From Minisyncoccota bacterium (GTDB lineage Bacteria > Patescibacteriota > Minisyncoccia > Phycocordibacterales > UBA9973): DNA of 57,326 bases. Positions 12,282 through 57,326 of this stretch are shown here, one piece after another. Below the pieces are notes generated by a model. It saw only the letters and a program-made list of their open reading frames with translations. It ran no database searches and had not been told where the DNA came from. The stretch is taken from NCBI GenBank assembly GCA_031972685.1, contig DALYEI010000002.1, positions 1 to 57,326 on the forward strand, in the 5' to 3' direction. Position 1 is the stretch's first letter. Each line of letters opens with the position of its first letter. The position numbers and the translations under genes were made by a program.

Positions 12282-12290
12282 TTTTAATTT

Positions 12291-19162: not shown

Positions 19163-19591
19163 ATGCAAGTTAAGATCAAAAGAATAGATAAAAGTTTACC
19201 GATGCCGGAATATCAGACTAGCGGAGCTGTGGCTTTTGATTTATACTCTCGTTTGGATTTTGTTATTAAACCTAAAACTTTAGAGAGATTGCCTACCAAC
19301 GTAATAATCGCGATACCGAAAGGTTATATGCTTGAGATTAAAGACCGTTCTAGTACTTTGAAGAAAAAGGGGCTGCTTGTTAGTACTGGATATATTGATA
19401 ATGATTATTGCGGAGAAAACGATGAGATACTTTTGCAAGTTTATAATATTACTGACTCTGATGTAGTTGTTGAAAAAGGAGAACGTTTAGGTCAGGGAGC
19501 TTTTGTGAGAGTAGATATAGGAGAATGGGAAGAAGTTGAAAATATGAGCGAGCAAAGTCGAGGAGGATTTGGAAGTACAGGACATAAATAA
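19163..19591 (+). CDS. dut: dUTP diphosphatase
   Basis: GYIDNDYCGE and RGGFGSTG motifs. The start was set at MQVKIKR, 6 nt downstream of TGtTATTGT (19148-19156). Confidence 0.85.
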   Translation: MQVKIKRIDKSLPMPEYQTSGAVAFDLYSRLDFVIKPKTLERLPTNVIIAIPKGYMLEIKDRSSTLKKKGLLVSTGYIDNDYCGENDEILLQVYNITDSDVVVEKGERLGQGAFVRVDIGEWEEVENMSEQSRGGFGSTGHK

Positions 19592-19592
19592 A

Positions 19593-44323: not shown

Positions 44324-44347
44324 AAAGCGGAAGTCCGCTTTTTTTTT
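44324..44347. terminator. second hairpin terminator, A-run / T-run flanked
   Basis: aaagcgg aagt ccgcttt followed by T9 and preceded by an A-run. Confidence 0.55.
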
Positions 44348-44483
44348 GCGGTGTACTCGGGTATGGTACCCGTGGGTTCAACCCTTGTAAGGCTATTCTA
44401 GCATGTTCTGACTGATGAAGTTTAGCTTTGTGGGTCGCAAGCTCAAATGCCAACAAATGCCAATTTTTGATATAATACAAACT

Positions 44484-45185
44484 ATGACCGTAGGCGAATT
44501 AGTGTATCAACAAGCAATAAAGGATGGATATGACCCTGCTACAGCAGAAAGGCTTGTTTCGCCGTTGAAGGCTGTTTTTGAGGCACATGAGAAGACACTC
44601 AAGGCTTTTGAACCAATGAGAGAATCATTGAAAAAAAGCATTGGGATGGCTAATTCCGCATTTGAATCTGTAAGACCATCGTTGGATGTTTTGGCTGGAT
44701 TCTCATTCCCAACAATAGATAAAGATGATTATATTATTCCTGCAAGAATGGTTCAGGAAGTTAGAATTGTTAACCCTGAAGATTTAGATGTTGGATCAGC
44801 TAAAAAAGAAAGTAGCGTTGTTGTTGCATCATACTTACTTCCCAAAAATGCTACATGGGAAGCATTGGATATAAAGTTTTTGGATGGACACCTTGTTAAG
44901 GTTTCTTACCCAAATATGAAACCGCAAAAGTTTGATTACAAAGATATGGGTTTTATGAATACTAAGACAAACAACCCAGATTATAAATGGGCACTACTTT
45001 TGGTAATGGCAGAATACGGTGGTTCGTTAACTAAATCAGAATGGGATAGAAGATTTGGCAGAAATGTTAAATATGAACTCAATGAAGGCTTGAAGAAGTT
45101 TTTTGGTATGAAGTCCAGCCCAATATCTCACTACACTAAAAGATATGGGTACAAAGCACTATTTTCTCTTAGAGCTGACAAATAG
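44484..45185 (+). CDS. hypothetical protein
   Basis: ORF with no family recognised. The start was set at MTVGEL, 7 nt downstream of TGaTATAAT (44468-44476), rather than the track start at 44415. Confidence 0.5.
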   Translation: MTVGELVYQQAIKDGYDPATAERLVSPLKAVFEAHEKTLKAFEPMRESLKKSIGMANSAFESVRPSLDVLAGFSFPTIDKDDYIIPARMVQEVRIVNPEDLDVGSAKKESSVVVASYLLPKNATWEALDIKFLDGHLVKVSYPNMKPQKFDYKDMGFMNTKTNNPDYKWALLLVMAEYGGSLTKSEWDRRFGRNVKYELNEGLKKFFGMKSSPISHYTKRYGYKALFSLRADK

Positions 45186-45206
45186 TCATTTCATATAAAA
45201 TGACGA

Positions 45207-45246
45207 AACAAAGACCTTTTGCTTGAACGAGCAAAAGGTCTTTGTT
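45207..45246 (+). terminator. 17-bp hairpin, probable terminator
   Basis: aacaaagaccttttgct / agcaaaaggtctttgtt with a 6-nt loop. The U-tract is weak. Confidence 0.5.
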
Positions 45247-45361
45247 ATTAAGGATTTCCTTACTACTCATTTTTGGGAAATAAAAAGAAATTGTCATTTT
45301 GTCATTCAATGACGAATAAGGGTAGAAGAGCAGCTAAGAACCTCTTCTGAAGAAAAACTCT

Positions 45362-46630
45362 ATGGCTAAGCAAAAGCGTACATGGTCTAGCACTACTCGC
45401 AAGTTGGTAGACCTAATTAATAACGGATACAATCCGAGAAAGTTGAGTGAGAGCGAAAAGAGAGACTTGGAAAATTCTGTTAAGGAATTTGGAACGGTCG
45501 TGCCTATTGTTCTTAATATCGGCTCAAGAGCCAATATTGTTATTGGTGGTGAGCAAAGAGTAAAAGTGTATATCGATCTCGGCATAGAAGAGATTGAGTG
45601 CATGATACCCTCGAAAGAGTTAACACTTGAAGAAGAAAAGGAACTCAACCTGCGACTCAACAAAAATACTGGTTCATGGAATGAAGAACTCTTGAAAGAG
45701 TTCGATATGGACATGCTTCTTGATGTGGGTTTTGGAGATGAAGAATTACAGAATCTATTTGATGACGTGGATCTTGTTGAAGATGATTTTGATGTTGAAA
45801 AAGCTATTAAAGAAACAGTGACACCAAAAGTGAAGTTAGGAGAAGTTTGGGAACTCGGGAAGCATCGCCTTTTAGTTGGAGATTCCACTGATGAGAATAT
45901 GGTAAAGGAACTCATGCAAGATGACATGGCAGATATTGTCTTTTGTGACCCACCCTATAATATTTTTTGGATATACGGAGGAAAGTATGGTGGAGAATAC
46001 AAAGATAATAAAAGCGAAGAGGAATACTCTGAATTTATTAGTAAAAGTATCGAAACGGCTAAAAAGTTTGCTAAACCAGACTCACACTTCTTTTATTGGT
46101 CAGACCCAAATAGCATAGGATTAACTCAATCTCTATACGATAAATACCAAATCAAGAAAAGAAGAGTGTGTCTTTGGGTAAAATCGAATCAGAACTGTAC
46201 TCCGAAAGTTGCTTGGAACAGACTCTATGAGCCATGCACATACGGCACACTTGGTAAGCCATATTTAAATCCCAACTTCAGAAATGCCAATGAAATTCTT
46301 AATCAAGAAGTAACAACTGGTAATCAGGTTCTGGATGAATTGCAGGACATGATAGACCTTTGGCTTGTTAAAAGAGATAACACTCAAAGCTATTTACATC
46401 CGACGCAGAAACCGATTTCTTTAAATGAAAAACCTTTCAAACGATGCTCTGCACCTGGGCATATCATCTTTTCTGGCTTCGCTGGAAGCGGATCTGATTT
46501 GATTGCATCTGAAGAATTAAATCGTGTGTGGCGTGGGGTCGAAAAAGATTTACTCTTCGCGACGATCATCATAGATCGTTGGGAAAAATTTACTAATCTT
46601 AAGGCGAAGAAAATCTATGAAAATAAATAA
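45362..46630 (+). CDS. ParB-like nuclease domain fused to a beta-class N4/N6 DNA methyltransferase
   Basis: N-terminus has GYNPRKLSE and GGEQRV (ParB/Srx-like). It is followed by FCDPPYN (motif IV), HPTQKPISL and FAGSGS (motif I) in the permuted beta-class order. Confidence 0.8.
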   Translation: MAKQKRTWSSTTRKLVDLINNGYNPRKLSESEKRDLENSVKEFGTVVPIVLNIGSRANIVIGGEQRVKVYIDLGIEEIECMIPSKELTLEEEKELNLRLNKNTGSWNEELLKEFDMDMLLDVGFGDEELQNLFDDVDLVEDDFDVEKAIKETVTPKVKLGEVWELGKHRLLVGDSTDENMVKELMQDDMADIVFCDPPYNIFWIYGGKYGGEYKDNKSEEEYSEFISKSIETAKKFAKPDSHFFYWSDPNSIGLTQSLYDKYQIKKRRVCLWVKSNQNCTPKVAWNRLYEPCTYGTLGKPYLNPNFRNANEILNQEVTTGNQVLDELQDMIDLWLVKRDNTQSYLHPTQKPISLNEKPFKRCSAPGHIIFSGFAGSGSDLIASEELNRVWRGVEKDLLFATIIIDRWEKFTNLKAKKIYENK

Positions 46631-47366
46631 AGGAGATATTTTTAGAGTCGGAAATCACATTATTGGATGTGGCGATTCTCTAGATAAAGAATTTGTCGCA
46701 AAAGTTATAGGTAGCAATAAAATACGAGCAGTCGTGACTGATCCTCCTTATGGTGTTGCCTACGTAGAAAATAAAATAGGACTCTCAAAGCTCGGTGTTA
46801 ATAATGAAAAAATTATCGCCAATGACCATCTGCAATCAGAAGAAGAATACGAAAATTTCACTCGCAAATATTTAGGTGCGACTATTCCGTATCTTGAAGA
46901 ATACAATGCGGTCTATATTTTCAATGCCGACTTAATGTTTCCAAGTTTACGCTTGGGAATGAAGTCTGCTGGTTTTTATTACAGTCAGATGATTATTTGG
47001 CTGAAAAATCAACCAGTCATGAGTAGAAAAGACTATCTGTCTATGTATGAACTCATTGCCTATGGATGGTTTGGTAAACACAAAATGGAACAGTCTAAGG
47101 CAAGAAATGTTATCTATCATCCTAGACCACATAAATCTAATCTCCACCCTACGCAAAAACCAATAGGGCTATTGAGAAAAATAATTCCTAACTCAACGAG
47201 AGTTGGTGACGTTGTATACGATCCATTTTTAGGAAGTGGATCAACGGCTGTCGCTTGTGCACACTTAGGTCGAAAGTGTATCGGCATAGAGCTTGATGAG
47301 GCGTATGTGCAAACATCTCTCACAAGGCTTGAAAAGCTCACTGGCGAGACAGCAGTAAAGCTTTAA
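46617..47366 (+). CDS. beta-class N4/N6 DNA methyltransferase
   Basis: VTDPPYG, HPTQKPIGLL and DPFLGSGST motifs. The start overlaps the upstream gene by 14 nt. Confidence 0.85.
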   Translation: MKINKGDIFRVGNHIIGCGDSLDKEFVAKVIGSNKIRAVVTDPPYGVAYVENKIGLSKLGVNNEKIIANDHLQSEEEYENFTRKYLGATIPYLEEYNAVYIFNADLMFPSLRLGMKSAGFYYSQMIIWLKNQPVMSRKDYLSMYELIAYGWFGKHKMEQSKARNVIYHPRPHKSNLHPTQKPIGLLRKIIPNSTRVGDVVYDPFLGSGSTAVACAHLGRKCIGIELDEAYVQTSLTRLEKLTGETAVKL

Positions 47367-47373
47367 GTGATAT

Positions 47374-47748
47374 ATGCAGGAAGAAGATTTTTCTAAAGAT
47401 CCATATAAAAAGCAGGTCTACGAAACCTATGCTCTTTGGAAGTCCCTTCCTTCGTTTCTTAAAGGGCAACCAAGAGTAGCACTCGAAAAGTTCGGTGTTG
47501 AAGAAGAGTCAGTATTTGAATTGCTTGCGATAAAGACACAGCTTGAATTCTCAAAAATATACAAAATTGATACTGGCACGCTCACTGATTGGAATAAGAG
47601 ACTTGAGAAAGATGGACTAGTCAAAGACATCAACTCATGGGCAAGAAAGCTAACTCCGAATGTTATTTTTGCACTCTATAAAAATATCATTAAAAGTGGC
47701 AAGGCTCATGAAGTAAGAGCTTGGTTTGAAATCGTAGAAAATAACTAG
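47374..47748 (+). CDS. phage-type HTH protein (terminase-small-subunit-like), tentative
   Basis: The segment KTQLEFSKIYKIDTGTLTDWNKRLEKDG looks like an HTH. Resemblance to phage small-terminase/phBC6A51-type HTH proteins is from memory only. Confidence 0.35.
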   Translation: MQEEDFSKDPYKKQVYETYALWKSLPSFLKGQPRVALEKFGVEEESVFELLAIKTQLEFSKIYKIDTGTLTDWNKRLEKDGLVKDINSWARKLTPNVIFALYKNIIKSGKAHEVRAWFEIVENN

Positions 47749-47749
47749 T

Positions 47750-47947
47750 ATGACTAAACCAATTAACCTAGAAGAAATAAATAATATTCTTTCGGATACT
47801 ATCCGCAAAGTGATGAACAAGGAAATGTCACTCAAGCAGGCATCTATGATTGCCAAGCTTACTTCTACGCTTTCAAAGAATATAGCCAACACAGAACTTA
47901 AAGAACGGGTCGAGTTCTTGGAAAACGCATTAAGAAAAAACAGATGA
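47750..47947 (+). CDS. hypothetical small protein
   Basis: ORF packed 1 nt after the upstream stop and ending 1 nt before the next start. Confidence 0.35.
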   Translation: MTKPINLEEINNILSDTIRKVMNKEMSLKQASMIAKLTSTLSKNIANTELKERVEFLENALRKNR

Positions 47948-47948
47948 T

Positions 47949-49430
47949 ATGAAAAACTTAAGTGATTTACTTAGAAGATCAAATATCACACCGCTTGAGC
48001 GAGTGACTGCACTGGTGCATAACGATATTTACAGAGAAAAGAATGGCAAAGGTGCACTATCTGATTCTGATATCTATGTTTTGACTCAAGCATGGAGTCC
48101 TCGTACCCTCGAAGTAAAGGAATACAACCGATACATAAAGATTGTTCAACTAGAGAATTCTATGAAAATGGATGCTCAGATGTTTTTATATCGGTCAGAG
48201 CTATCACTGTTACGAAACCAGAGAGTGCTTGATAGTTTTCTTTCTGGTACAAGAAGCTTTCAGGGGGTAGCAATGCAACAATTCACAAAAGATATTCCAG
48301 AGGAAGAAAGTATCAAACTGCTTACAGAATCTACTTATTTTGAGTATCAAAAACTGTTACACATATTTACGTTTAATAACCTACCAAAAGAAACACAAGA
48401 AGACTTACTTCTCCTCGACGACACGGTTGCTAGTGATTCCAAATACTTGGAAGACCAGATCTTTCTCTATGAACGATTCAAGGATAGCACCAAACTCAGT
48501 AAGGAGGAGAAAGACTTGATTGTCAGTCGTATCTATTCCTGTATGTACTATGAGGGAGCGAAGAAAATAAGAAATACCATGGCGGAAAAAGGAGGGTTTT
48601 TACTCCATCACTTTTTTGCTGAGCTACCAATAAAAGATGTATTTTTAAAATTAGCTTACGATGCACATATTTCACACGATGCTACCGAAGAAAACATATT
48701 GTCGATGGTGGAAGAATATGCAAAAAATAAAAACATGAGTATTGAGTTGTTGGTCAAAGAAACTCTATCTCGTTGGTTAGATGATGGCTTATTCGTAAAT
48801 GAATATTCACCACTTAGTATGAGTGAGCGTTTTGACACATGGAATGGTAATACCAAAAAGAGTCACAAGGATTTGTTCATGGCTTGGTATACAGAACTGC
48901 AAAAGTCCAAAAAGTATTTTCAAAAGCTATTTGATACCGGCAAGTTGGTAAAACAAAATCTTGAAAAAGATTTCTTGGGAATGCCGAGAGTGGTAGAGAT
49001 AATAACTGGGACTAATTTATATACCTGTAAAGAAGAGGTTAATTTTGTGCAGGAGTATAAAGAACAGATTGAAATACTTTTACCGCTTGCAAATATGTTT
49101 CTTTTTACAAAGAAGCACGCAAGTCCAGTTAAGAGCTATAAGACACTCTGCGAATTTAAAAATCTGGCTCAAAAACCATCGACTATATTTGATATTGATA
49201 TGACCGAGAAGTATAGTGAGTTTTTTGAACTATACAAAGAAGAAGTTGATCTACTAAATCATAGTCTTAGTAAACTAATAGATACCGCAATAGAGCATCT
49301 ATACACCGAGAAATCATTGCTCTATGTTCTCGATATTATCGAGGCTAACTTTACATTTAATCTTGATGCCGACGACAGCGTAGCTGAAATAACAGAATTA
49401 TATTCTGCTGAGTTTAAAAAACTATTGTAA
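47949..49430 (+). CDS. hypothetical protein (493 aa), no family recognised
   Basis: Long ORF that looks helical. No NTPase or nuclease motif recognised. Confidence 0.5.
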   Translation: MKNLSDLLRRSNITPLERVTALVHNDIYREKNGKGALSDSDIYVLTQAWSPRTLEVKEYNRYIKIVQLENSMKMDAQMFLYRSELSLLRNQRVLDSFLSGTRSFQGVAMQQFTKDIPEEESIKLLTESTYFEYQKLLHIFTFNNLPKETQEDLLLLDDTVASDSKYLEDQIFLYERFKDSTKLSKEEKDLIVSRIYSCMYYEGAKKIRNTMAEKGGFLLHHFFAELPIKDVFLKLAYDAHISHDATEENILSMVEEYAKNKNMSIELLVKETLSRWLDDGLFVNEYSPLSMSERFDTWNGNTKKSHKDLFMAWYTELQKSKKYFQKLFDTGKLVKQNLEKDFLGMPRVVEIITGTNLYTCKEEVNFVQEYKEQIEILLPLANMFLFTKKHASPVKSYKTLCEFKNLAQKPSTIFDIDMTEKYSEFFELYKEEVDLLNHSLSKLIDTAIEHLYTEKSLLYVLDIIEANFTFNLDADDSVAEITELYSAEFKKLL

Positions 49431-49442
49431 TTTCAGAATCAA

Positions 49443-49904
49443 TTAGTGATTATCCCTCAACTCGTCGAGCTTCTTCTTGACCTCATACGGATGAGCTATG
49501 TGGCTCAGGACGATTTCTTCTTTACTTGTTCCTGCGGTGTTAATAAATAACTGCCCGCTTTTTGTGAATGTCTTGTCTAAAAATGATTCACGGACGGTAA
49601 CATCAGTGATCTGCTTGTAGTCAACGCTGACTAAGTTTGTTGAGAAAAATCCACGATGGATCAATACTCGCTTGTCGGTAAATCCGTATATGTTTGCCTT
49701 AGGCAAGTAAAACTTCAGATACAAGAATGCGATGAGGAATATGAAAATTCCTACGACGGCAAACACGAACGGCAAACTGATGATCGCCCAGATGATAATG
49801 TATGTATTAATATACTGCTTTCCGACTGAGAACTCGTACTTAACTTCTTCATGTGCACTGAGGACTTTGCCCCAAACTTCTTCACTATGTGATTTTTTAT
49901 CCAT
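49443..49904 (-). CDS. membrane protein with bacterial PH domain (bPH_2 / YdbS-like)
   Basis: Two TM helices (IIIWAIISLPFVFAVVGIFIFLIAFLYL) followed by FTDKRVLIHRGFFSTNLVSVDYKQITDVTV, typical of bPH_2. Confidence 0.7.
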   Translation of the reverse strand: MDKKSHSEEVWGKVLSAHEEVKYEFSVGKQYINTYIIIWAIISLPFVFAVVGIFIFLIAFLYLKFYLPKANIYGFTDKRVLIHRGFFSTNLVSVDYKQITDVTVRESFLDKTFTKSGQLFINTAGTSKEEIVLSHIAHPYEVKKKLDELRDNH

Positions 49905-50110
49905 AAAACTTTGGACGGTTTAATTATTATGGTGGCTGTTTAGGTAGCAAAAAGCTCCTAGCCAGATCCGATATACCCCGTGAGGTATACCCATACCCGT
50001 TTCCAGATATGACCGTCCAAAGTAGACTCTGACTAGGAGTTCTTTACTTTGGACGGATTTGGCGACCATATCCTCAATAAATTGAGGGGTTAGGTCTGTT
50101 ATTAAATTGT
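49905..50110 (-). promoter_or_regulatory. about 200-nt structured leader / candidate cis-regulatory RNA upstream of the bPH gene
   Basis: 12-bp perfect hairpin (50013-50024 / 50045-50056). Its loop (50029-50039) can pair over 11 bp with 49955-49965. Closing helix 49928-49936 / 50062-50070. A third copy of ACTTTGGACGG lies at 49908-49918, next to the start codon. Confidence 0.45.
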
Positions 50111-50116
50111 AAACGA

Positions 50117-50125
50117 ATTATACCA
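50117..50125 (-). promoter_or_regulatory. extended -10 element TGgTATAAT on the minus strand
   Basis: Plus-strand attatacca is the reverse complement of TGGTATAAT. No terminator is visible between the DUF2779 stop and this element. Confidence 0.45.
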
Positions 50126-50189
50126 TTTTCAAGGGTATTTTTGTACTTTAGCTTAGATCGAGTTTATTGTGTAGTGAAGTTACCAACAG

Positions 50190-51689
50190 CTAGATTTTTT
50201 CATAAAGATGCTTCCAAATTGCGTACATAGCATAAGTATCTAGACCACAATAAATTTTAAGATTTTTAGAAATATCCTCAAGTTCTTCCTTGCTTGTGCC
50301 TGGTGCGACCATGAACCACCACTGTTCCGAGGCTTGACCACCCTCATGGATAACTAAGTCACCATAGTTTAAGTCAGGGATCAAGGCTGGCAATACTTTT
50401 TTGATTGAGGCACTTCCTTGAAAATCTGGATGGACATAATACTGCTTTGAAAAAATATCCTTCAGATCATACATTTGATTATTTATACGCTCCATCGCTT
50501 CTCGATGTTCAGGAAGACGCTCTGCGATATCAGAATTGACTCCTTTCTCAAATGACTTATTCCACGAAATAACTGTACCTTTTGGTTCGATATGCTTAGT
50601 TAAAAGTTGCGCGACCAATTCTGAAGGATCGGTACGTTTAGGATGAAGAAAATCAACATGCTCAACTTCGCCATTTGGTTCACGTAAAATGTGAAGTGAA
50701 AATTGAAACGGTATCCGTTTATAAGGACTATAATTAACGAACTGCGGAATCGCTGGAGCATACGTTTCGTAATCCAAGAAATATAGAGGAAATTCCAAGC
50801 CACTAAGTTGAGTTCTAATCTCACTCAAATCAATAGTTGGGGCCTTGGTTCTATGAGCTTGTAGTTGGTTGGTCTGAATGGGAGATAGCTCATAATCGGT
50901 AGGGATATCATCAAGATTGTAGATACTATTGTCGACAAAAAATTCCATTTTCTTTTTACTGCTTCCAATACGTGAAAGATCATGGACTGAATATTCTGGT
51001 ACTTCGGGATGGGAGTACTGAAACGTAGCGCAATGTCTGCTTCGCCCTAGGTAATGACAATCACAACCACTCGCAGGTTCTGTTTCTTGATTAAGGAACT
51101 CACGTGAGCCTTCCATTAAAATACTCATTTCATCGAATCTTTGAGCCACGGTTTCAGTAAGATCTTCAATTGTAAATAATTGACGAATATCAAGATCGCT
51201 AGTTCGTACGTATTCTTTATTCAAATGAATTAAAAACGAACGTCCCAGATTCACGCCCGCACGCTTTAAGACTATTGCTTGAAATGTGAGATCTTCAACA
51301 TGGCTTCTCTCGTCTGAACCCTCTTTAAGAGAATTTGTTCCTTTGATTTCGTAAAGATCCCAGCAATCATTTTCGGGTTCATAAACCAAAACGTCATTTC
51401 GAGCAATAAAGCCATCAACAATAAATGTAGCTTGAAAAATGGCAGGGGTTTTTGCCTCCATTAACTTTCTTGTTTCAAGACATGCATTTTCACCTTTACT
51501 TATAACTTCAACGCCATCAGGAAAAAGACCGCGAGCACACAACTCTACTTCGTTACCTTGTTCGATAAGTTGCTTTTCAAATTCGGAAAGTTCGAAATTC
51601 TCCAGAAGCTCAGGTTTGTGTAGTTTCAGCCAAGTATTTTTAGCACAGTTACGTGAGTCGATAAATATTGTTTTTGATATAAGAGGCAT
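50190..51689 (-). CDS. DUF2779-type protein: Cas4-like PD-(D/E)xK nuclease plus DEDD-like exonuclease
   Basis: N-terminal half has Cys at RNCAKN, D...ExK (ARNDVLVY ... DLYEIKG) and the Cys cluster CDCHYLGRSRHC. C-terminal half has FLDYETYAP (DxE) and CGLDTYAMYAIW. Confidence 0.7.
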   Translation of the reverse strand: MPLISKTIFIDSRNCAKNTWLKLHKPELLENFELSEFEKQLIEQGNEVELCARGLFPDGVEVISKGENACLETRKLMEAKTPAIFQATFIVDGFIARNDVLVYEPENDCWDLYEIKGTNSLKEGSDERSHVEDLTFQAIVLKRAGVNLGRSFLIHLNKEYVRTSDLDIRQLFTIEDLTETVAQRFDEMSILMEGSREFLNQETEPASGCDCHYLGRSRHCATFQYSHPEVPEYSVHDLSRIGSSKKKMEFFVDNSIYNLDDIPTDYELSPIQTNQLQAHRTKAPTIDLSEIRTQLSGLEFPLYFLDYETYAPAIPQFVNYSPYKRIPFQFSLHILREPNGEVEHVDFLHPKRTDPSELVAQLLTKHIEPKGTVISWNKSFEKGVNSDIAERLPEHREAMERINNQMYDLKDIFSKQYYVHPDFQGSASIKKVLPALIPDLNYGDLVIHEGGQASEQWWFMVAPGTSKEELEDISKNLKIYCGLDTYAMYAIWKHLYEKI

Positions 51690-51703
51690 ATTCTCTGAGA
51701 GGT

Positions 51704-54700
51704 TTATGAGATTGTTTTAATAATATCCTCGATTATTGCTTCTTTGTGTGAAATCCAATGTTGAGACCAAACACGATATATATCCCAACCAAGTCTTCTA
51801 AGAATATCTTCTCTCAAACGATCGTTTACACGAGCAGAGTATGAAGAGTGATACGATGCACCATCACACTCGATTCCAAGAATATAGTCAGTTCCAGTCT
51901 TAGGATTTATGATTGCCAAGTCGATTTTAAAACCTGATACACCAATTTGTTTTCTAACTTCGTACCCACGTTCCTCAAGTGCTCGTTTAACCTCCAGTTC
52001 AAATGGACTATCAGCTTCAACGTCCTCTCCTGCAACAACAAGACGGCTACCGTCGAGAGTCTTAACCCCATTTTCAGCATAATCTAAATATTTCTGTAAC
52101 ATTTTTGCACCTCGTGAAGTTTCTCCGGCTTTCATCTCGGTCGATTTAAAAGAAGATACGCAAATCAATTTTTCTTTCGCACGAGTTACTGCTACGTTCA
52201 AACGTCTGTAGCCAGTGACGCTATTGATAGGACCAAAACGATTAAAGAAGTTACCATTTTTATCTTTACCATACCCAATAGAGAGTACGATAATGTCGCG
52301 CTCATCTCCTTGTACAGATTCAAGATTCTTAATGAAGAACGCATCGCTACCGTCTTGATCTTCGTTTAATTTTTCCTGAAGTTCAGGATGTGTTTTAAGA
52401 AACTCGATCATCGCGTCTCTGATACCCACTTCTTGAGATTTACTGAATGCGATCACACCAATGGACTTGTCTGGATAGTCGGTCGCAGACTGAGCACACA
52501 TTTCAACGACGCGTTTTGCTTCGATATCGTTACGACGTGTTCCCGCATGACCTTCCTTTTTGATTCCGCCATCGAATATACCGTCCTCAACATACTCAAA
52601 CTGAACCCCGCGACTTGAATGATCTGGATTGGGGAAAGTAATAAGGCGATCCTTGTAGACTTCACAGTTTGAGAACGCAATAAGATCTTCATACTTACTG
52701 CGGTAGTGATATAAGAGAGAATCGCTTGATTCAGGAAGAACGGTTCGTGCGGCATGAAGAATGCTTTCATAATCTTGTTCTTCGACCTCTTCAGAATCGT
52801 CATCTGAATCTGAGGCTACGTCAAAGAAAGATGTTGGGGGAAGCTGGTGTTCATCACCGAAAATAATGACTTGTTTTCCCCGAGCAATTGCACCCAGAGC
52901 GTGTTCAACACGCATCTGTGATGCTTCATCGAAAATAACCGTGTCAAAATCAAGTGAGCCATATGGAATATATGAACTCAATGTCAAAGGACTCATCATC
53001 CAGCAAGGCTTGTATTGCTGGATATGAGAAGTACATTTCATAACAACCTGTCGAACGGGTTTGTGTTGCTTCTGGAGTTGGCTTTGGTGAAGCAAAAAGC
53101 GTTCAAGCTCGCCACGACGCTCTTTTACTTTTTTAATCTCAGGAGCAATTCTTTGGAGTATTCGTTTCGCATTAACATCAAGTACACGCTTCTCAAGCTT
53201 GCGGAACTCCTCGATAGTTTTCTTGTGTTCACTTACATTAAAATCTCGTAGATCAGGATCGCTACGATAATAATTTTCAAGCCACGAATTCCAAAGTGAT
53301 TCAGCAAACAAAGCTGCTGGATTTTTTATATCGCTACCCTTAACTGATTCCAAGAACCAAGAGTAACCTAGATCTTTCATCTGGTGCGAATAACGACGAT
53401 ATTCCATCCATGCTTCAAGGCCTTCTTGGTCTTGGATCATTCCCGATAACTTTTCCTGAAATGCCTCAATTTTTAGAGGTTCAAGAATTGCTAAGCTTTG
53501 TTCATTCTCAAACAGCTTATTTAAAGCCGAAGCGTGCTTTTCGTAATTTGTAAGTGCTGACTTCCATTTATCAAGTTTTGCTTTTGCTTCTGTGGTTAAT
53601 TGTATCGAATCACTGAGTGAAATATCACTTTGATAATTAGACAATTTTGATATATGCCAGAGCAGATCCTCAAGTTCAAGCATATTCTTCTCTAAGGACT
53701 TACGTTTATCTATAAGTGAGGCGGGGTTTTCCTCTTCTGTGAATAAGCTGAAAATATCTGGATCAATCTTATCTAAACATACCTTGAGTTGGTTAAGATT
53801 CTGGACATCTTTCTTGAGAGAACCAAAAGTTCGAGAAGAATCATTCTTTATTAAGAAATTTTCCACAATCTCTTCGAGAGAAATTATGTTCTGAGCATTC
53901 TCTGTCAGCTCTCCAAGTTTAGAAGCAACATTTGCAATTGAGACACGATCAAGATCAGAAAATACACTGAATATGCTCCAAGGACCACTGAGTACTGCCT
54001 CCAAATCTTTTAATGAATCGCTAAAAGCTTTCGTTGCACGAGGACTACTGTTTTTCTCGACAACCTGCTTTAGATGGCTAGGGAGTTCGCTCTTATTTTC
54101 TTGACGCATCCATTCGCTGAGATTCTTTGCGCTACCTGAAAGAATTGGAATTTCGTGTACCGTTATTGATTTACCTGAAACAATGTACTTCTCGTTAAAT
54201 TGAGCAAGAAGAATACCTAATTTTTCTTCAAGGTTTTGGCTGTCGCGTACAGCAGAAACAACTTGATTAATATCTACATACTTTTTCGGTGTATTTAGGT
54301 TGCACCAATCTGAAACTATCGCTTTAGTTGCCCTATAATCACGGGAGAAAAAATGTAGGTATTTATGATACCTCTTATTAAATTCAGTAAATACTTTTTC
54401 GACATCTTCTCTATTTAAGTTTTCACGAATAATTGCCCATTTTTCAAATACCGCATTTGCTTCTTCAAGTTTACGATAAATGGCTTGTAATGTTGTAAGT
54501 GATCCAAGAGAAGCCTGTAATGATGATGCTTCGCTCCAATCCTTTATTCCAATAATAAGTGGATCGAGAATTAAAATATTTCGATAATGAATTAATTCAG
54601 CAATAGGTAAATTCAAGAGATCGTCGTTCTTGCAAGCCTCTACATTTGAATATAAGGAAGACAGGATCGCTTCAATTTTAGATGCAGCATCGAGTGCAGT

Positions 54701-56605
54701 GCGAATCTCTTTAATTTCACGCTCGTCATTTACGGACTGGACATCTAGCTTACTCAAAGACCATAAAGTAGGCACTTTATAGATATCCCCGAAACTCTCG
54801 GTAAGTTTTTGATAGGCAGAAATAACTTCAACCGTTTGTTTTAAAATCTGAATTCCAGCATTAAGAATGACTTCATCTCGTAGTGGTATTGGTAATAAGC
54901 TAGTTTCAAACTGTGCCAATTTTTCAACAGTCTCCATATTCTTTTGCAGACTTTGAATTGTATCCAAGCCTATTGATTCGGGTTGTAGAGAATTAAGTTC
55001 GGCAATCGCAGAATGAGCATCCTCAAGTACGACTCGAACTCTACTCGCGAAGTCAGGAGAGAAATTTTCTTTTTGTATTTGACTCCATGCTGAAAATTTG
55101 GAATCAGAAATCTTGTGGAGGACTGGAGAAACAGCTTCCAAAATCGTAAGAATTTTCCGATACGTGTCTTCAGTAATAACTAATGGATTACTTTCTCCCC
55201 ATGGTATTGCCCGATCAGAGTTAAGTGCTTGTGCTCTAGCAAGCTCTCCGTGAACCCATTGAACTGATCGCTTGAGTGGTTCAACAACAGTAGCCAGTGA
55301 ACATGCGTAATTCCATAGTTTTGTATGGACACCTTCACGCAATTCAAGAGCCGTATCATCACTAGAGCTACTATGTCCATAGGCTTCGATCAGAAAGTCT
55401 CTATCGTTTATAACAGATTTCGCGAATGTTTTTTTATCAGCGTTCTGATAAAAAAGTGGCAGACAAAGCTTGTCGAGTCCTTTATCTTTGAGACGTTTAA
55501 AAACAACTTCAAGGGCAACCTGTTTTTCACAGACAACGAGTACTTTTTTGCCACGAGCAAGTAAGTTAGAAACAAGGTTAACGATGGTCTGACTTTTTCC
55601 TGTTCCAGGAGGACCTTGAACAACAAGACTGTTACCTTGAACAGCTTTCTGAATAACTCGCATCTGGCTTACATCGGCATCTAGAACAGTGAAGTCTTCT
55701 TCAACAGCCAAAAGATCATCGGGTTGTGAGTCTGACGGTAAACCTTCTTGAATGATAGAACCTTTGCCGATAAGACCATCAACAAATTCATGTTCACAAA
55801 TTGCTTCTTCATTATTTCTTAGGTCTTCGTATATTTGTTGACCATAAAAAGAGTACTGACCGATACGAATATCGTCAGTGATATCATTTTTAATTTTAGA
55901 TTCTGCAAATGATTTTTTTAATATTTTGACAAGGGAGTCGAATGTTCCAGAGAGACTGGTGATTTCTTCAAGTGAGGGTATCCCAGAAATCTGAACCCCG
56001 TATTCCAATTCAGAGAGTAAAAGTAGTACAGGATTAACAACAATATCATTCGCTTCTAAATACGTTCTGATTATTGTTTTCTTTGGCGTAGATTTTGTTT
56101 CTTCAACTGAAACAGGAATAAGAAGAAGTGGGGCATCGTAGTCATAGTCTTTTTCTTCTAGTGCTCCTTCTGAGCCACGACCATTTCCTGGTTCTTTCCA
56201 ACGTACACGACCAATCGTGAGGTATAGGGTATGGAGTCCATGTTCTTCAAATTTCTTTTTACTATCAAGCCTCAAAGCTTGAAGCATTGTTATAAGCTTT
56301 TTACCTTGAACGTCTGTAGGCGGAATAGATGAATCCTTTTCAGCATCCTCTACCACTTCTTCCTCTTCGCGAAGAATTGCTTTATGCGGAAACTCAATCT
56401 CTATTTCTTCAGCAGAACCGAAACTCTCTTCAAAATCAGAGATGTTCATTTTAAAAGAAATAGCCCGAGCTTTTGCGGGGTATTTCAAGAGACGGTTTCG
56501 TCGAGTAAGATCAACAATCTTTTTTTCGTACTCTCTCAAAACTTTTATATTTGGATTCAAAACTTCGGCAGAAGTTTCATTTGGACGGTTTTTTACTGTA
56601 GTCAT
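51704..56605 (-). CDS. DUF4011-type SF1 (Upf1-like) helicase with C-terminal Vsr/DUF559-like endonuclease
   Basis: N-terminal LTRRNRLLKY; helicase motifs GPPGTGKSQT, VIFDEASQM, GDEHQLPP, QGDERDIIVLS and LNVAVTRAKEKL. The C-terminus IDLAII...GIECDGASYHSS...RLREDILRRLGWDIYRVWS is typical of Vsr-like / DUF559 nucleases. Confidence 0.85.
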   Translation of the reverse strand: MTTVKNRPNETSAEVLNPNIKVLREYEKKIVDLTRRNRLLKYPAKARAISFKMNISDFEESFGSAEEIEIEFPHKAILREEEEVVEDAEKDSSIPPTDVQGKKLITMLQALRLDSKKKFEEHGLHTLYLTIGRVRWKEPGNGRGSEGALEEKDYDYDAPLLLIPVSVEETKSTPKKTIIRTYLEANDIVVNPVLLLLSELEYGVQISGIPSLEEITSLSGTFDSLVKILKKSFAESKIKNDITDDIRIGQYSFYGQQIYEDLRNNEEAICEHEFVDGLIGKGSIIQEGLPSDSQPDDLLAVEEDFTVLDADVSQMRVIQKAVQGNSLVVQGPPGTGKSQTIVNLVSNLLARGKKVLVVCEKQVALEVVFKRLKDKGLDKLCLPLFYQNADKKTFAKSVINDRDFLIEAYGHSSSSDDTALELREGVHTKLWNYACSLATVVEPLKRSVQWVHGELARAQALNSDRAIPWGESNPLVITEDTYRKILTILEAVSPVLHKISDSKFSAWSQIQKENFSPDFASRVRVVLEDAHSAIAELNSLQPESIGLDTIQSLQKNMETVEKLAQFETSLLPIPLRDEVILNAGIQILKQTVEVISAYQKLTESFGDIYKVPTLWSLSKLDVQSVNDEREIKEIRTALDAASKIEAILSSLYSNVEACKNDDLLNLPIAELIHYRNILILDPLIIGIKDWSEASSLQASLGSLTTLQAIYRKLEEANAVFEKWAIIRENLNREDVEKVFTEFNKRYHKYLHFFSRDYRATKAIVSDWCNLNTPKKYVDINQVVSAVRDSQNLEEKLGILLAQFNEKYIVSGKSITVHEIPILSGSAKNLSEWMRQENKSELPSHLKQVVEKNSSPRATKAFSDSLKDLEAVLSGPWSIFSVFSDLDRVSIANVASKLGELTENAQNIISLEEIVENFLIKNDSSRTFGSLKKDVQNLNQLKVCLDKIDPDIFSLFTEEENPASLIDKRKSLEKNMLELEDLLWHISKLSNYQSDISLSDSIQLTTEAKAKLDKWKSALTNYEKHASALNKLFENEQSLAILEPLKIEAFQEKLSGMIQDQEGLEAWMEYRRYSHQMKDLGYSWFLESVKGSDIKNPAALFAESLWNSWLENYYRSDPDLRDFNVSEHKKTIEEFRKLEKRVLDVNAKRILQRIAPEIKKVKERRGELERFLLHQSQLQKQHKPVRQVVMKCTSHIQQYKPCWMMSPLTLSSYIPYGSLDFDTVIFDEASQMRVEHALGAIARGKQVIIFGDEHQLPPTSFFDVASDSDDDSEEVEEQDYESILHAARTVLPESSDSLLYHYRSKYEDLIAFSNCEVYKDRLITFPNPDHSSRGVQFEYVEDGIFDGGIKKEGHAGTRRNDIEAKRVVEMCAQSATDYPDKSIGVIAFSKSQEVGIRDAMIEFLKTHPELQEKLNEDQDGSDAFFIKNLESVQGDERDIIVLSIGYGKDKNGNFFNRFGPINSVTGYRRLNVAVTRAKEKLICVSSFKSTEMKAGETSRGAKMLQKYLDYAENGVKTLDGSRLVVAGEDVEADSPFELEVKRALEERGYEVRKQIGVSGFKIDLAIINPKTGTDYILGIECDGASYHSSYSARVNDRLREDILRRLGWDIYRVWSQHWISHKEAIIEDIIKTIS

Positions 56606-56727
56606 AACTATTTGATTTTACCATTTCTGCACCAGAATTGACAGATAAAAAGACTGAGATATAAGGGCATAGTTGCCAATTGGAGATACCCTAGACTTCT
56701 ACGAAGATCAGCGTCATTCATTAAAAT

Positions 56728-57090
56728 GTGGAAGACATTGAAGCAATAATAGATGCCAGCAAGCATTTCAAATATCACGAACCAAGCGGAAGTACGCCTT
56801 TTAACCGCATCTCTTCTCTTCCTGAATCAAAGAAGCATTTAAAACGAGCCATCAAGGAAAGGATACAATTGTTGGTTGGGGCATACATATCACTGGCATC
56901 ATTTATTGATGACGATCTCGTCGATTTTTTAGAAGAGTGTAATGAGAATTTAGATAAAGAAAAGATAAAAGAAATATCAAAAATATATAAATTAGTTCTA
57001 AAAAATATGGACAAGCTTAGGAAAGAAATGGAGGATTTCGACCCTTTTGAGTTACCAACAGATAGTACTCGGGACGCACTAGACTCCTAG
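56728..57090 (+). CDS. hypothetical acidic protein
   Basis: ORF with a GTG start, divergent from the helicase gene and just upstream of the recombinase. No family recognised. Confidence 0.35.
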   Translation: MEDIEAIIDASKHFKYHEPSGSTPFNRISSLPESKKHLKRAIKERIQLLVGAYISLASFIDDDLVDFLEECNENLDKEKIKEISKIYKLVLKNMDKLRKEMEDFDPFELPTDSTRDALDS

Positions 57091-57115
57091 GGCGAGTTGC
57101 GTCATCAATGTAGGT

Positions 57116-57326
57116 ATGAAGATAGAAAACCCAAATATAGAGCAAGGTGTAGCGAAAGTGGTAGTCGAGCCAAAGAAGATCAAATACTGCCTATACGCAA
57201 GAAAATCGACAGAATCTGAGGAACGGCAAGTGCTTTCCATAGATAGCCAAATCAGCGAGATGCTCCAACTGGCGGATCGTGAGGGGCTTGAAGTGGTCAC
57301 CATGAAGCGTGAGAGCCATAGTGCAA
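57116..57326 (+). CDS. serine recombinase, N-terminal catalytic domain, 3' end cut by the window
   Basis: My own translation from the ATG at 57116 gives MKIENPNIEQGVAKVVVEPKKIKYCLYARKSTESEERQVLSIDSQISEMLQLADREGLEVVTMKRESHSA. The YARKST...SIDSQ motif is the resolvase/invertase catalytic signature. It is missing from the ORF track because no stop codon is reached. Confidence 0.8.
   Translation, partial: MKIENPNIEQGVAKVVVEPKKIKYCLYARKSTESEERQVLSIDSQISEMLQLADREGLEVVTMKRESHSA

What the first reader, a model, noticed from the sequence alone, without database searches (positions are those of the whole stretch)
49443..56623. Candidate multi-nuclease defence-like operon: DUF4011 helicase/Vsr-like nuclease, DUF2779 dual nuclease, structured RNA and bPH membrane protein
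Three co-oriented minus-strand genes make up the cluster. Gene 1 (51704-56605, 1633 aa) combines a DUF4011-like N-terminus, a Upf1-like SF1 helicase with a long helical insertion between motifs I and II, and a C-terminal Vsr/DUF559-like endonuclease. As far as I recall, this is the architecture of the single-gene Hhe class catalogued in defence-island screens. Gene 2 (50190-51689) starts 14 nt after the gene 1 stop. It is a DUF2779 protein with a Cas4-like Fe-S PD-(D/E)xK nuclease and a DEDD-like exonuclease. I see no terminator after gene 2. A promoter-like element and the structured leader then precede gene 3, a bPH_2 membrane protein. The cluster sits in an accessory segment next to orphan methyltransferases and a serine recombinase. 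I am not aware of a described system that pairs a DUF4011 helicase-nuclease with DUF2779 and a bPH protein. The combination of a translocase, three nuclease modules and a possible membrane effector fits a nucleic-acid-targeting immunity or exclusion module.
Basis: partly seen in the sequence, partly recalled or inferred. Interest (0 to 1): 0.8.

Follow-up and report, generated by a model that had tools for sequence, protein, structure and literature searches.

The report
Mobile defence island with LOOT RNA
The segment lies on a mobile island of an ultra-small (CPR) bacterium and holds a known type of anti-phage helicase-nuclease, a two-headed DNA exonuclease behind it, and a separate known RNA motif (LOOT) that leads into a membrane-protein gene; the genes are ordinary in kind, but the way they recur together is new and testable.

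Summary
Gene 1 is a member of the Hhe / PADLOC PDC-S37 class, a single-gene helicase-nuclease defence. Gene 2 is a DUF2779 protein with a Cas4-like and a DEDDy nuclease domain. The "structured RNA" is the Rfam motif LOOT (RF03000). Gene 3 is a YdbT-like bPH membrane protein.

This is not one obligate operon. It is two units on a horizontally acquired island (window about 44340 to the end) that has a serine recombinase and ParB-methyltransferase genes.

Unit 1 is gene 1 plus gene 2. The pairing recurs in distant lineages but is facultative. Relatives of gene 1 at 75-82% identity lack DUF2779. Across 61 scorable loci, DUF2779 sits behind a large co-oriented gene, almost always a helicase, restriction or NTPase gene, far more often than chance (17/61 vs 28/444, p=2e-6).

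Unit 2 (promoter, LOOT, bPH) belongs to the island backbone. LOOT lies next to recombinase, terminase-like or ParB-methyltransferase genes in 12 lineages, always 55-85 nt before a variable gene. It carries a covarying alternative helix followed by a U tract, which suggests a cis-acting switch.

Verdict: a new variant of a known kind, of moderate interest.

The parts
51704..56605 (-). Gene 1: a 1633-aa protein with a DUF4011 N-terminus, an Upf1-like SF1 helicase carrying an insertion of about 890 aa, and a C-terminal MTES_1575/DUF559 (Vsr-like) endonuclease. It belongs to the Hhe / PDC-S37 class.
   Evidence: ORF; Pfam; PADLOC PDC-S37 964 bits and Hhe 499 bits; invariant motifs; PDB profile hits to Upf1, IGHMBP2, Sen1 and Dna2
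56615..56644 (-). Promoter-like site (CTGTCA, 18-nt spacer, TG-TAAAAT) just upstream of the gene 1 start
   Evidence: consensus scan. This is a consensus match only; the number of sites in the region is no higher than in shuffles.
50190..51689 (-). Gene 2: a 499-aa DUF2779 protein. The N-terminal part is a Cas4/MGME1-like PD-(D/E)xK nuclease with four conserved cysteines; the C-terminal part is a DEDDy 3'-5' exonuclease. It starts 14 nt after the gene 1 stop.
   Evidence: Pfam; invariant residues; AlphaFold model pLDDT 90; Foldseek; published description of the same architecture (PMC13621843, PMC3985635)
50117..50125 (-). Extended -10 promoter element TGGTATAAT, conserved in all four close relatives, 21 nt upstream of LOOT
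   Evidence: sequence; alignment A2; -10-like elements lie 25-45 nt upstream of LOOT in other lineages too
49970..50096 (-). LOOT RNA (Rfam RF03000), matched over the full length of the model
   Evidence: cmscan 81.2 bits against a gathering score of 46.4; one compensatory G-C to C-G change in P3 between the window and L003/L004
50028..50039 (-). Apex of LOOT helix P2 (CUCCUAGUCAGA): the 5' strand of the alternative helix
49947..49966 (-). 3' extension of LOOT: UCUGGCUAGGAG (49966-49955), complementary to the P2 apex, followed by CUUUUUGC (49954-49947). Together they look like a terminator.
   Evidence: 12 lineages; 99/99 cells paired, 7 of 9 pairs with changes on both sides, 0/500 shuffles reach the score
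49908..49918 (-). Copy of the P2 5' arm (CCGTCCAAAGT), 3 nt before the gene 3 start codon. It can pair with the P2 3' arm.
   Evidence: analogous copies with different sequences occur in L142 and L143
49443..49904 (-). Gene 3: a 153-aa YdbT-like membrane protein with a hydrophobic N-terminal segment and a bPH_2 domain
   Evidence: Pfam; homologues are named YdbT-like; LOOT precedes homologues in L138 and L139
56728..57090 (+). 120-aa ORF of unknown function between gene 1 and the recombinase, conserved in L001
   Evidence: A small ORF occupies the same position in L140; sequence homology with it was not shown.
57116..57326 (+). N-terminus of a large serine recombinase; the gene runs off the end of the window
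   Evidence: translation shows YARKSTESE...SIDSQ; the full-length orthologue L001:3246-4574 has Resolvase, Recombinase and Zn_ribbon_recom domains
45362..47366 (+). ParB_N-N6_N4 methyltransferase and a second N6_N4 methyltransferase; both are island backbone genes
   Evidence: Pfam; homologues accompany LOOT in L139, L142, L143, L144 and L146
44340..57326 (.). Extent of the horizontally acquired island inside the window
   Evidence: 95% nucleotide identity to L001 stops at 44340, beyond which the flanks differ; GC rises from 0.30-0.33 to 0.37-0.40

Best explanation
The 7.2-kb segment consists of two separately promoted units on an integrative island of a Patescibacteria (CPR) genome.

Unit 1 is defence cargo: gene 1 and gene 2, probably transcribed together.
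- Gene 1 is an Hhe/PDC-S37-class protein with an Upf1-like SF1 motor and a Vsr-like endonuclease.
- Gene 2 (DUF2779) combines a Cas4-like 5'-3' nuclease with a DEDDy 3'-5' exonuclease.
- Proposed mechanism (inferred): gene 1 recognises, nicks and unwinds invading DNA, and gene 2 degrades both unwound strands. This is a RecBCD/AddAB-like division of labour in bacteria reported to lack RecBCD.
- The partnership is facultative. Gene 1 can stand alone, and DUF2779 serves as the distal gene behind many different translocase-type defence genes.

Unit 2 is island backbone: an extended -10 promoter, the LOOT RNA, and a variable small gene that is mostly membrane or secreted (here the bPH gene).
- Proposed mechanism (inferred): LOOT acts in cis. 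Either its P2 apex forms a hairpin, or it pairs with a segment just 3' of the motif that is followed by a U tract. That choice between a terminator-like state and read-through gates expression of the downstream gene.
- The signal that decides between the two states is unknown.

Shown: domain identities, linkage statistics, covariation of the alternative helix, and the island boundary.
Inferred: the biochemical cooperation of genes 1 and 2, transcription termination by the alternative helix, and anti-phage function in this organism.
For: Gene 1 class: PADLOC PDC-S37 E=4.5e-290 and Hhe E=7e-150. hhe is a single-gene helicase-nuclease defence system (PMC11482910, PMC13223576), and a Halomonas Hhe is annotated as a DUF4011 protein of the same length (PMC11232893).

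Gene 2 nuclease sites are conserved and the fold agrees (PMC13621843).

The gene 1 - gene 2 adjacency recurs:
- in the window clade, as a 6.8-kb block at 88-93% nucleotide identity in three different contexts;
- in L085/L086, where gene 1 is 48% and gene 2 40% identical and the gap is 2 nt;
- in L027;
- in L139/L140, with a helicase only 27% identical but carrying the same C-terminal nuclease;
- in L136, where an analogous PDDEXK_1+RNase_H_2 dual nuclease lies next to a 43%-identical gene 1 relative.

The co-oriented position upstream of DUF2779 is enriched for large genes: 17/61 vs 28/444, p=2e-6, while the downstream position is not enriched. These neighbours are Type I, III and IIG restriction enzymes, SNF2, PDC-S06, GmrSD, Avs4, GajB-like and SF1 genes.

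CPR bacteria are reported to lack RecBCD (PMC6509639).

LOOT: 12 lineages confirmed by Rfam. In each, a co-oriented start codon lies 55-85 nt downstream. LOOT lies next to serine recombinase, ParB-methyltransferase or terminase-like genes. For the alternative helix, 99/99 cells pair, 7 of 9 pairs change on both sides, and 0/500 shuffles reach the score; it is followed by a U tract in most lineages.
Against: - Gene 1 relatives at 82%, 80%, 75%, 48% and 46% identity, and all 28-40% relatives on viral contigs, have no DUF2779 nearby.
- Most DUF2779 genes in CPR sit next to housekeeping genes such as rpoD, folD, atpC, thioredoxin and AhpC. The Mycoplasma homologue is quasi-essential (PMC13621843), which fits a general repair role.
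- No PADLOC model matches gene 2 or gene 3.
- CPR genomes have long same-strand gene runs and short spacers, so tight spacing is weak evidence for coupling.
- The register of the LOOT alternative helix was chosen from each sequence's best helix, which inflates the pairing percentage. L087 and L085 lack a U tract directly after the helix.
- Rfam lists LOOT as an sRNA.
- No experiment exists for any part of this in any CPR organism.
Confidence: 0.5

Rival explanations
1. The genes are independent neighbours. Gene 1 is a self-sufficient single-gene Hhe-type defence. Gene 2 is a general DNA-repair or maintenance nuclease, housekeeping-like in reduced genomes, that happens to lie beside a spot where defence genes insert or that was carried along on the island. 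LOOT and bPH are unrelated backbone genes.
For: - Hhe works as a single gene (PMC11482910).
- Close relatives of gene 1 lack DUF2779.
- DUF2779 is about 60% identical across more than 100 CPR clusters and often sits next to rpoD, folD or atpC.
- The Mycoplasma homologue is quasi-essential (PMC13621843).
- A core DUF4011 gene flanks a defence hotspot in P. aeruginosa, which shows that such anchor genes exist (bioRxiv 2022.11.11.516204).
Against: - The enrichment for large NTPase genes is one-sided: it is found upstream and co-oriented, not downstream. Gaps are 2-21 nt in at least 12 independent cases. A symmetric insertion hotspot would not predict this.
- Gene 1, gene 2 and LOOT move as one block between contexts.
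- The helicase-nuclease plus dual-nuclease pairing recurs with non-orthologous partners.
Confidence: 0.3
2. This is one integrated multi-component immunity system. Helicase-nuclease, DUF2779, LOOT RNA and the bPH membrane effector all work together; for example, LOOT senses infection and switches on a membrane effector.
For: - The full arrangement is conserved in L139/L140 at deep divergence.
- LOOT was found in 3 of 6 loci fetched through gene 1 relatives, against 1 of 72 DUF2779 loci that lack gene 1 (p=0.001).
- LOOT precedes bPH in three lineages.
- SNase genes that are 66% identical follow gene 1 and gene 2 in both L004 and L085.
Against: - In L003 and L004, which are 88-93% identical over gene 1, gene 2 and LOOT, bPH is replaced.
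- LOOT plus a downstream gene occurs with a recombinase but without any helicase or DUF2779 (L138, L143, L144).
- Gene 1 occurs without LOOT within 6-8 kb in L084 and L136.
- Shared descent of one family of islands explains the co-occurrence equally well.
Confidence: 0.08
3. The helicase and nucleases serve the mobile element itself, in replication, recombination or packaging of a satellite or prophage-like island, and do not act in defence.
For: - The island family carries a serine recombinase, ParB-methyltransferase genes and, in relatives, terminase-like genes.
- Five LOOT loci lie on IMG/VR viral contigs.
- Phages often encode Cas4/RecB-like exonucleases and SF1 helicases (general knowledge).
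Against: - Gene 1 scores 964 bits on a defence-candidate model and has a Vsr-like endonuclease rather than a replicative architecture.
- The slot between recombinase and LOOT holds different defence-type cargo in other islands, such as a KAP NTPase, or is empty.
- Gene 1 relatives also occur away from such islands, for example after a ribosomal protein operon.
- The window itself has no recognisable terminase.
Confidence: 0.1

Closest known systems
Hhe (single-gene helicase + Vsr-like nuclease defence system) and PADLOC candidate PDC-S37
   Same: Gene 1 has the same architecture: DUF4011, an SF1 helicase and an MTES_1575/DUF559 nuclease. Its length (1633 aa) equals that of an annotated Halomonas Hhe. 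It matches both HMMs strongly (PMC11232893).
   Different: The best match is PDC-S37, an untested candidate class, rather than Hhe proper. Here the gene is followed at 14 nt by a DUF2779 dual nuclease, which is not part of either model. The host is a CPR bacterium.
RecBCD / AddAB helicase-nuclease machines
   Same: An SF1 motor is combined with a Cas4/RecB-type PD-(D/E)xK nuclease that has an Fe-S-type cysteine set, and nucleases of both polarities are available. This is the proposed working analogy for gene 1 plus gene 2.
   Different: There is no sequence-level membership. The second nuclease is a DEDDy exonuclease, the motor carries its own Vsr-like endonuclease, no complex has been shown, and there is no Chi-type regulation.
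DUF2779 / MMSYN1_0389 lineage of Cas4-related nucleases (PMC13621843) and solo-Cas4
   Same: Gene 2 has the same two-domain architecture, with the catalytic D-E-K and DEDD-Y residues conserved.
   Different: Gene 2 keeps all four cysteines, whereas the Mycoplasma protein has two. It is island-borne and lies behind a defence helicase. No function is known for any member of the family.
LOOT RNA motif (Rfam RF03000; Weinberg et al. 2017, PMC5737381)
   Same: The match covers the full model and scores above the gathering threshold, with the same helices.
   Different: Rfam lists it as an sRNA. Here it always lies 55-85 nt upstream of a co-oriented gene, on recombinase/ParB-methyltransferase islands, and has a covarying 3' alternative helix with a U tract that lies outside the Rfam model. 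I could not read the original supplement, so part of this may already be known.
Defence hotspots on phage satellites and integrative islands (P4-like or PICI-type) and core-gene-flanked hotspots (P. aeruginosa cDHS1)
   Same: An integrase-bearing element carries a slot whose cargo varies between relatives: gene 1 with gene 2, a KAP NTPase, a reverse transcriptase, or CBASS-like genes.
   Different: The host is a CPR bacterium. The recombinase is a large serine recombinase. Terminase-like genes are present only in relatives. Satellite behaviour has not been shown.
Riboswitch or attenuator leaders with a terminator/antiterminator choice
   Same: There are mutually exclusive helices, one of them followed by a U tract, between a promoter and a gene.
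   Different: No ligand or binding protein is known. The terminator-like helix would enclose about 60 nt of folded RNA (or form a pseudoknot with basal P2). The downstream genes are functionally heterogeneous.

Membership tests
Hhe / PDC-S37 helicase-nuclease defence class | N-terminal DUF4011 domain | tested here: met
   PF13195 at residues 29-195, E=2.3e-16
Hhe / PDC-S37 helicase-nuclease defence class | SF1 (Upf1-like) helicase core with intact ATPase motifs | tested here: met
   AAA_11 and AAA_12; invariant GPPGTGKS, DE and QGDxR motifs; PDB hits to Upf1, IGHMBP2, Sen1 and Dna2
Hhe / PDC-S37 helicase-nuclease defence class | C-terminal Vsr-like (DUF559/MTES_1575) endonuclease | tested here: met
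   PF18741 E=2e-32 and PF04480 E=6e-4; invariant E1579-C-D-G and H1586
Hhe / PDC-S37 helicase-nuclease defence class | Match to the family HMMs | tested here: met
   PDC-S37 964 bits; Hhe 498.9 bits. The closer fit is to PDC-S37.
Hhe / PDC-S37 helicase-nuclease defence class | Protects against phage as a single gene | not testable with these tools
   Needs expression and phage challenge. Neighbourhoods show that relatives often stand alone.
DUF2779 (PF11074) Cas4-like + DEDD dual nuclease | PF11074 domain above the gathering score | tested here: met
   141.9 bits against a cut-off of 23.3
DUF2779 (PF11074) Cas4-like + DEDD dual nuclease | PD-(D/E)xK catalytic triad and Cas4-type cysteines in the N-terminal half | tested here: met
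   Invariant D99, E114 and K116, and C15, C209, C211 and C220; Foldseek hits to MGME1 and Cas4 with probability 1.0 but modest TM-scores
DUF2779 (PF11074) Cas4-like + DEDD dual nuclease | DEDD(y) acidic residues in the C-terminal half | tested here: met
   Invariant D306, E308, D408, Y480 and D484; RNase T-like fold with probability 0.6-0.9. The assignment of D408 to the third motif is by position only.
LOOT RNA (RF03000) | Covariance-model score above the Rfam gathering threshold over the full model | tested here: met
   81.2 bits against 46.4, model positions 1-121
bPH_2 (YdbS/YdbT-like) membrane proteins | PF03703 domain after N-terminal hydrophobic segments | tested here: met
   37.6 bits against 22. 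The hydrophobic stretch at about residues 35-67 was read from the sequence. Homologues are named YdbT-like.
Obligate multi-gene defence system (gene 1 + gene 2 + LOOT + gene 3) | The components co-occur consistently across relatives | tested here: not met
   Gene 1 occurs without gene 2. Gene 2 occurs without gene 1 in more than 70 loci. Gene 3 is replaced in L003 and L004. The full set recurs only in L139/L140.
Phage satellite / PICI-like integrative island | Integrase plus terminase-related genes, no virion structural genes, and inducible packaging | tested here: inconclusive
   A serine recombinase is present. Terminase-like genes are found only in relatives. The window ORFs at that position have no hit. 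Induction cannot be tested here.
Transcription-attenuating cis-regulatory RNA | Mutually exclusive conserved helices, one of them a terminator, upstream of the regulated gene | tested here: inconclusive
   The alternative helix covaries, and a U tract follows it in most lineages. Termination itself and the signal were not tested, and the geometry is atypical.

The most novel reading that the evidence does not exclude
There are two linked novelties.

(1) DUF2779 proteins may be a general, previously unrecognised accessory module of bacterial immunity: a two-polarity exonuclease recruited as the distal gene behind many unrelated translocase-type defence proteins (Hhe/PDC-S37, Type I/III/IIG restriction enzymes, SNF2, GmrSD, Avs4, GajB-like helicases). 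In RecBCD-less bacteria such as CPR and Mollicutes it would supply the step that degrades DNA after cleavage.

(2) LOOT may be the cis-acting switch of a family of satellite or prophage-like integrative islands in CPR bacteria. It sits beside the recombinase and would gate a membrane or secreted protein through a terminator-like alternative helix.
Probability: 0.3. Interest if true: 0.75.

Novelty: new variant of a known kind. Interest (0 to 1): 0.55.

Why it matters
CPR/Patescibacteria are a large part of bacterial diversity, mostly lack CRISPR, and how they resist phages is poorly understood. This locus makes three things testable.

1. It gives a concrete candidate partnership between an Hhe-class helicase-nuclease and a DUF2779 dual exonuclease. 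It also gives a statistical hint that DUF2779, an uncharacterised family that is quasi-essential in the minimal cell JCVI-syn3.0, works downstream of many translocase-type defence enzymes.
2. It gives the first genomic context and a mechanistic hypothesis for the orphan RNA motif LOOT: a leader with a covarying terminator-like switch.
3. It outlines a family of integrative islands in CPR bacteria that exchange defence cargo.

None of this has been shown experimentally. The individual genes are of known kinds.

Tried and rejected
- The genome-contig scan with the single gene 2 protein returned only 2 loci.
- A PHROG search of the island ORFs gave no hits. A blastp comparison found no similarity between the window's 493-aa and 124-aa ORFs and the terminase-like and HTH genes of related islands. 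I therefore dropped my provisional labels of TerL and TerS for those window ORFs.
- A sequence-profile search of PDB with the gene 2 alignment found nothing useful. Fold comparison was needed instead.
- I first thought that bPH and LOOT were restricted to the window's own species. Looking up gene 3 homologues overturned this.
- I considered LOOT as an integration target (attB) for the recombinase. I did not pursue this: the recombinase lies on the 5' side of LOOT, and the short repeat in the window spans only 115 nt. It remains possible.
- The main text of Weinberg et al. 2017 does not describe LOOT, and its supplement is not held. No paper mentions PDC-S37.
- I could not predict a structure for gene 1, because it exceeds the 1200-aa limit, or for a gene 1 - gene 2 complex.

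Full report
OBSERVATION

The three minus-strand ORFs are at the stated coordinates: 51704-56605 (1633 aa), 50190-51689 (499 aa) and 49443-49904 (153 aa). Gene 2 begins 14 nt after the gene 1 stop.

Gene 1. Pfam gives DUF4011 (29-195), AAA_11 (from 311), AAA_12 (1291-1485) and MTES_1575 (1535-1632, E=2e-32), plus a weak DUF559 hit. In an alignment of 29 relatives, Walker A (G331-T340), Walker B (D1226/E1227), a QGDxR motif (1432-1436) and the nuclease residues E1579-C-D-G and H1586 are invariant. About 890 residues therefore separate motifs I and II. A profile search of PDB hits IGHMBP2, Upf1, Sen1 and Dna2, and the insertion (about 770-1034) hits designed coiled coils.

Gene 2. It is a DUF2779 protein (E=1.7e-41). 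Thirty homologues share invariant C15/C209/C211/C220, D99/E114/K116 and D306/E308/D408/Y480/D484. An AlphaFold model (pLDDT 90.4) resembles MGME1 and Cas4 Pcal_0546 in the N-terminal half and RNase T in the C-terminal half. The probabilities are high but the TM-scores are modest. This dual-nuclease architecture is already published for the family (PMC3985635; PMC13621843, where the Mycoplasma member is quasi-essential).

Gene 3. It is a bPH_2 protein.

The RNA. The structured RNA between genes 2 and 3 is the Rfam motif LOOT (RF03000) at 49970-50096 (-), scoring 81.2 bits against a gathering score of 46.4. A conserved extended -10 element (TGGTATAAT, 50125-50117) precedes it. No terminator-like site follows gene 2.

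WHERE IT SITS

Homologue names and the title of a 97%-identical contig place the window in Patescibacteria/CPR ("uncultured Candidatus Saccharibacteria"). The left 40 kb of the window looks chromosomal: it includes RecG and a RecJ-like gene.

Window 44340-57326 is 95% identical to contig L001, but left of 44340 the two contigs differ. GC rises there from 0.30-0.33 to 0.37-0.40.

The island carries a ParB_N-methyltransferase, a second methyltransferase and, at the window's end, the N-terminus of a large serine recombinase. "Accessory segment" is therefore correct.

IS GENE 1 A KNOWN DEFENCE GENE?

PADLOC models PDC-S37 (E=4.5e-290, 964 bits) and Hhe (E=7e-150) match gene 1. Genes 2 and 3 match nothing. 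hhe is a single-gene helicase-nuclease defence system used in phage work (PMC11482910; listed in PMC13223576). A Halomonas Hhe is annotated as a DUF4011 protein of identical length (PMC11232893). Gene 1 is a member of this known class, closest to the untested candidate subgroup PDC-S37.

IS GENE 2 LINKED TO GENE 1?

Neighbourhoods of gene 1 relatives with a DUF2779-type neighbour:
- The window clade. In L001, L003 and L004 a 6.8-kb block (gene 1, gene 2, LOOT) at 88-95% nucleotide identity sits in three different contexts.
- L027, with one small ORF between the two genes.
- L085/L086, where gene 1 is 48% and gene 2 40% identical and the gap is 2 nt.
- L136, where a 43%-identical relative faces a 505-aa PDDEXK_1+RNase_H_2 protein. 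This is the sister architecture of DUF2779.

Neighbourhoods of gene 1 relatives without DUF2779:
- Relatives at 82%, 80% and 75% identity.
- Relatives at 48% and 46% identity.
- About ten relatives at 28-40% identity on viral contigs.

Seen from the DUF2779 side (80 metagenome loci and 12 viral loci):
- Both flanks vary widely. They include housekeeping genes such as rpoD, folD, atpC, thioredoxin and AhpC.
- The co-oriented upstream position is nevertheless enriched for ORFs of at least 640 aa: 17 of 61 against 28 of 444 other ORFs in the same loci (Fisher p=2e-6). The downstream position is not enriched (5 of 62).
- These upstream genes are a Type III Res, a Type IIG/ISP enzyme, HsdR, SNF2 (BrxH/DrmD-like), PDC-S06, SF1 helicases, GmrSD, Avs4 and GajB-like helicases. 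Many have gaps of 2-21 nt.

The linkage is therefore real but promiscuous and facultative. DUF2779 behaves like a distal partner of translocase-type defence genes, and SF1 helicase-nucleases are its most frequent partner.

ARE LOOT AND bPH PART OF IT?

In L003 and L004, homology to the window ends exactly at the gene 3 start codon. Other genes follow instead: a DUF5048-like protein and an SNase.

A covariance model built from the window clade, confirmed with Rfam, found LOOT in:
- L083, L087 and L085/L086, which are all gene 1 loci;
- L038, a locus with a WYL protein, DUF2779 and DarT;
- L138 and L139/L140, which were fetched through gene 3 homologues.

LOOT was present in 3 of 6 loci fetched through gene 1 relatives, against 1 of 72 DUF2779 loci lacking gene 1 (p=0.001).

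L139/L140 reproduces the whole arrangement: serine recombinase, small ORF, SF1 helicase with MTES_1575 (only 27% identical to gene 1), DUF2779 (60%), TerB_N, LOOT, bPH (50%), HTH protein, ParB-methyltransferase.

A LOOT sequence pattern scanned over IMG/VR gave five hits, all true LOOT. Every hit with enough flank carries ParB-methyltransferase and HTH genes, and several carry terminase-like genes.

The serine recombinase lies divergently next to LOOT in L083, L138, L143 and L144. In L142 a KAP NTPase fills the slot between recombinase and LOOT. In the window that slot holds genes 1 and 2.

I conclude that LOOT and its downstream gene belong to the backbone of a family of integrative, phage-related islands, and that genes 1 and 2 are cargo.

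HOW LOOT MAY WORK

- In all lineages a -10-like element lies 25-45 nt upstream, and a co-oriented start codon lies 55-85 nt downstream.
- A 9-17-nt segment beginning 1-8 nt after the Rfam 3' end is complementary to the P2 apex. Its sequence differs from lineage to lineage, and in most lineages CUUUUUG(C/U) follows it.
- On a register-anchored 9-bp alignment of 11 distinct sequences, 99 of 99 cells pair and 7 of 9 pairs change on both sides. No shuffle out of 500 reaches the covariation score, and slid registers fall to about 50% paired. One caveat applies: the register came from each sequence's best helix.
- This helix excludes the apical P2 hairpin, which is a perfect 6-7-bp stem in L087 and L085. 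The tail can instead form a local hairpin with a third copy further downstream.
- In the window, L142 and L143, a copy of the P2 5' arm lies just before the start codon.

I infer a cis-acting switch between a terminator-like state and read-through. The signal is unknown, and the downstream genes are heterogeneous: bPH in three lineages, SNase, DUF4352, and zinc-ribbon/TM proteins.

MECHANISM PROPOSED FOR GENES 1 AND 2 (INFERRED)

The Hhe-class protein nicks and unwinds foreign DNA. DUF2779, with a Cas4-like 5'-3' nuclease and a DEDDy 3'-5' exonuclease, degrades both strands. This is analogous to RecBCD/AddAB, which CPR bacteria are reported to lack (PMC6509639).

The main rival is that gene 2 is a general repair nuclease lying next to a defence insertion site. 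The one-sided, co-oriented enrichment and the block-wise mobility argue against this but do not exclude it.

NOVELTY AND VERDICT

All four components are of known kinds. Three things appear new, as far as the held literature shows:
- the recurrent pairing of Hhe-type helicase-nucleases, and other translocases, with DUF2779;
- the island family itself;
- the context and alternative helix of LOOT.

The finding is a real, moderately interesting new variant of a known kind. It is not a categorically new multi-nuclease system.

Noticed in passing
window 49908-49918 and 50046-50056 (-); L142 and L143 downstream of LOOT: A 10-12-nt copy of the LOOT P2 5' arm lies 3-10 nt before the start codon of the downstream gene in three lineages, with a different sequence in each. 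The P2 3' arm could therefore pair with the translation start region.
   Followed up: partly
window 47949-49430 (+) and 47374-47748 (+): The 493-aa and 124-aa ORFs have no Pfam or PHROG hit. They occupy the position where related islands carry terminase-like and HTH (TerS-like) genes, and blastp shows no similarity to those genes.
   Followed up: partly
window 44340 (island edge); L001:17347: A 95%-identical copy of the island has different flanks in L001 (photolyase side) than in the window (histidine kinase / RecG side). This fits a mobile or rearranged island. No att repeats were searched for.
   Followed up: partly
L038:7390-10670 and 12269-12384: DUF2779 is flanked by a WYL-domain protein and a DarT ADP-ribosyltransferase, with a LOOT RNA 2.8 kb downstream. 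This is another defence-type context for both elements.
   Followed up: partly
L083:12272-15047: A Peptidase_S24 gene and CBASS-like SAVED and SMODS genes lie 4 kb from an 80%-identical gene 1 relative, on the same recombinase/methyltransferase island.
   Followed up: no
L088 and L092 (IMGVR_UViG_3300032737_000190): One IMG/VR contig carries two DUF2779 genes about 17 kb apart. One of them is next to a DrmD-like SNF2 gene.
   Followed up: no
L143:2333-3391; L142:5094-7793; L144:3566-4966: Other LOOT islands carry a reverse transcriptase (RVT_1), a KAP-family NTPase and a PIF1 helicase as variable cargo.
   Followed up: no
L004:9697-10662 and L085:14500-15333: SNase-domain genes that are 66% identical over 134 aa follow gene 1 and gene 2 in two lineages whose gene 1 proteins are only 48% identical.
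   Followed up: partly
window 21854-25417 (+) and 19569-21341 (+): Two large ORFs in the apparently chromosomal part of the window match PHROG families of unknown function strongly: phrog_12710 (E=3e-187) and phrog_15344 (E=5e-74).
   Followed up: no
L139:591-5264 / L140:468-5264: The helicase-nuclease in the otherwise conserved architecture is only 27% identical to gene 1 and lacks a DUF4011 Pfam hit, whereas DUF2779 (60%) and bPH (50%) are well conserved. Either the helicase evolves very fast or it was replaced by an analogous gene.
   Followed up: partly
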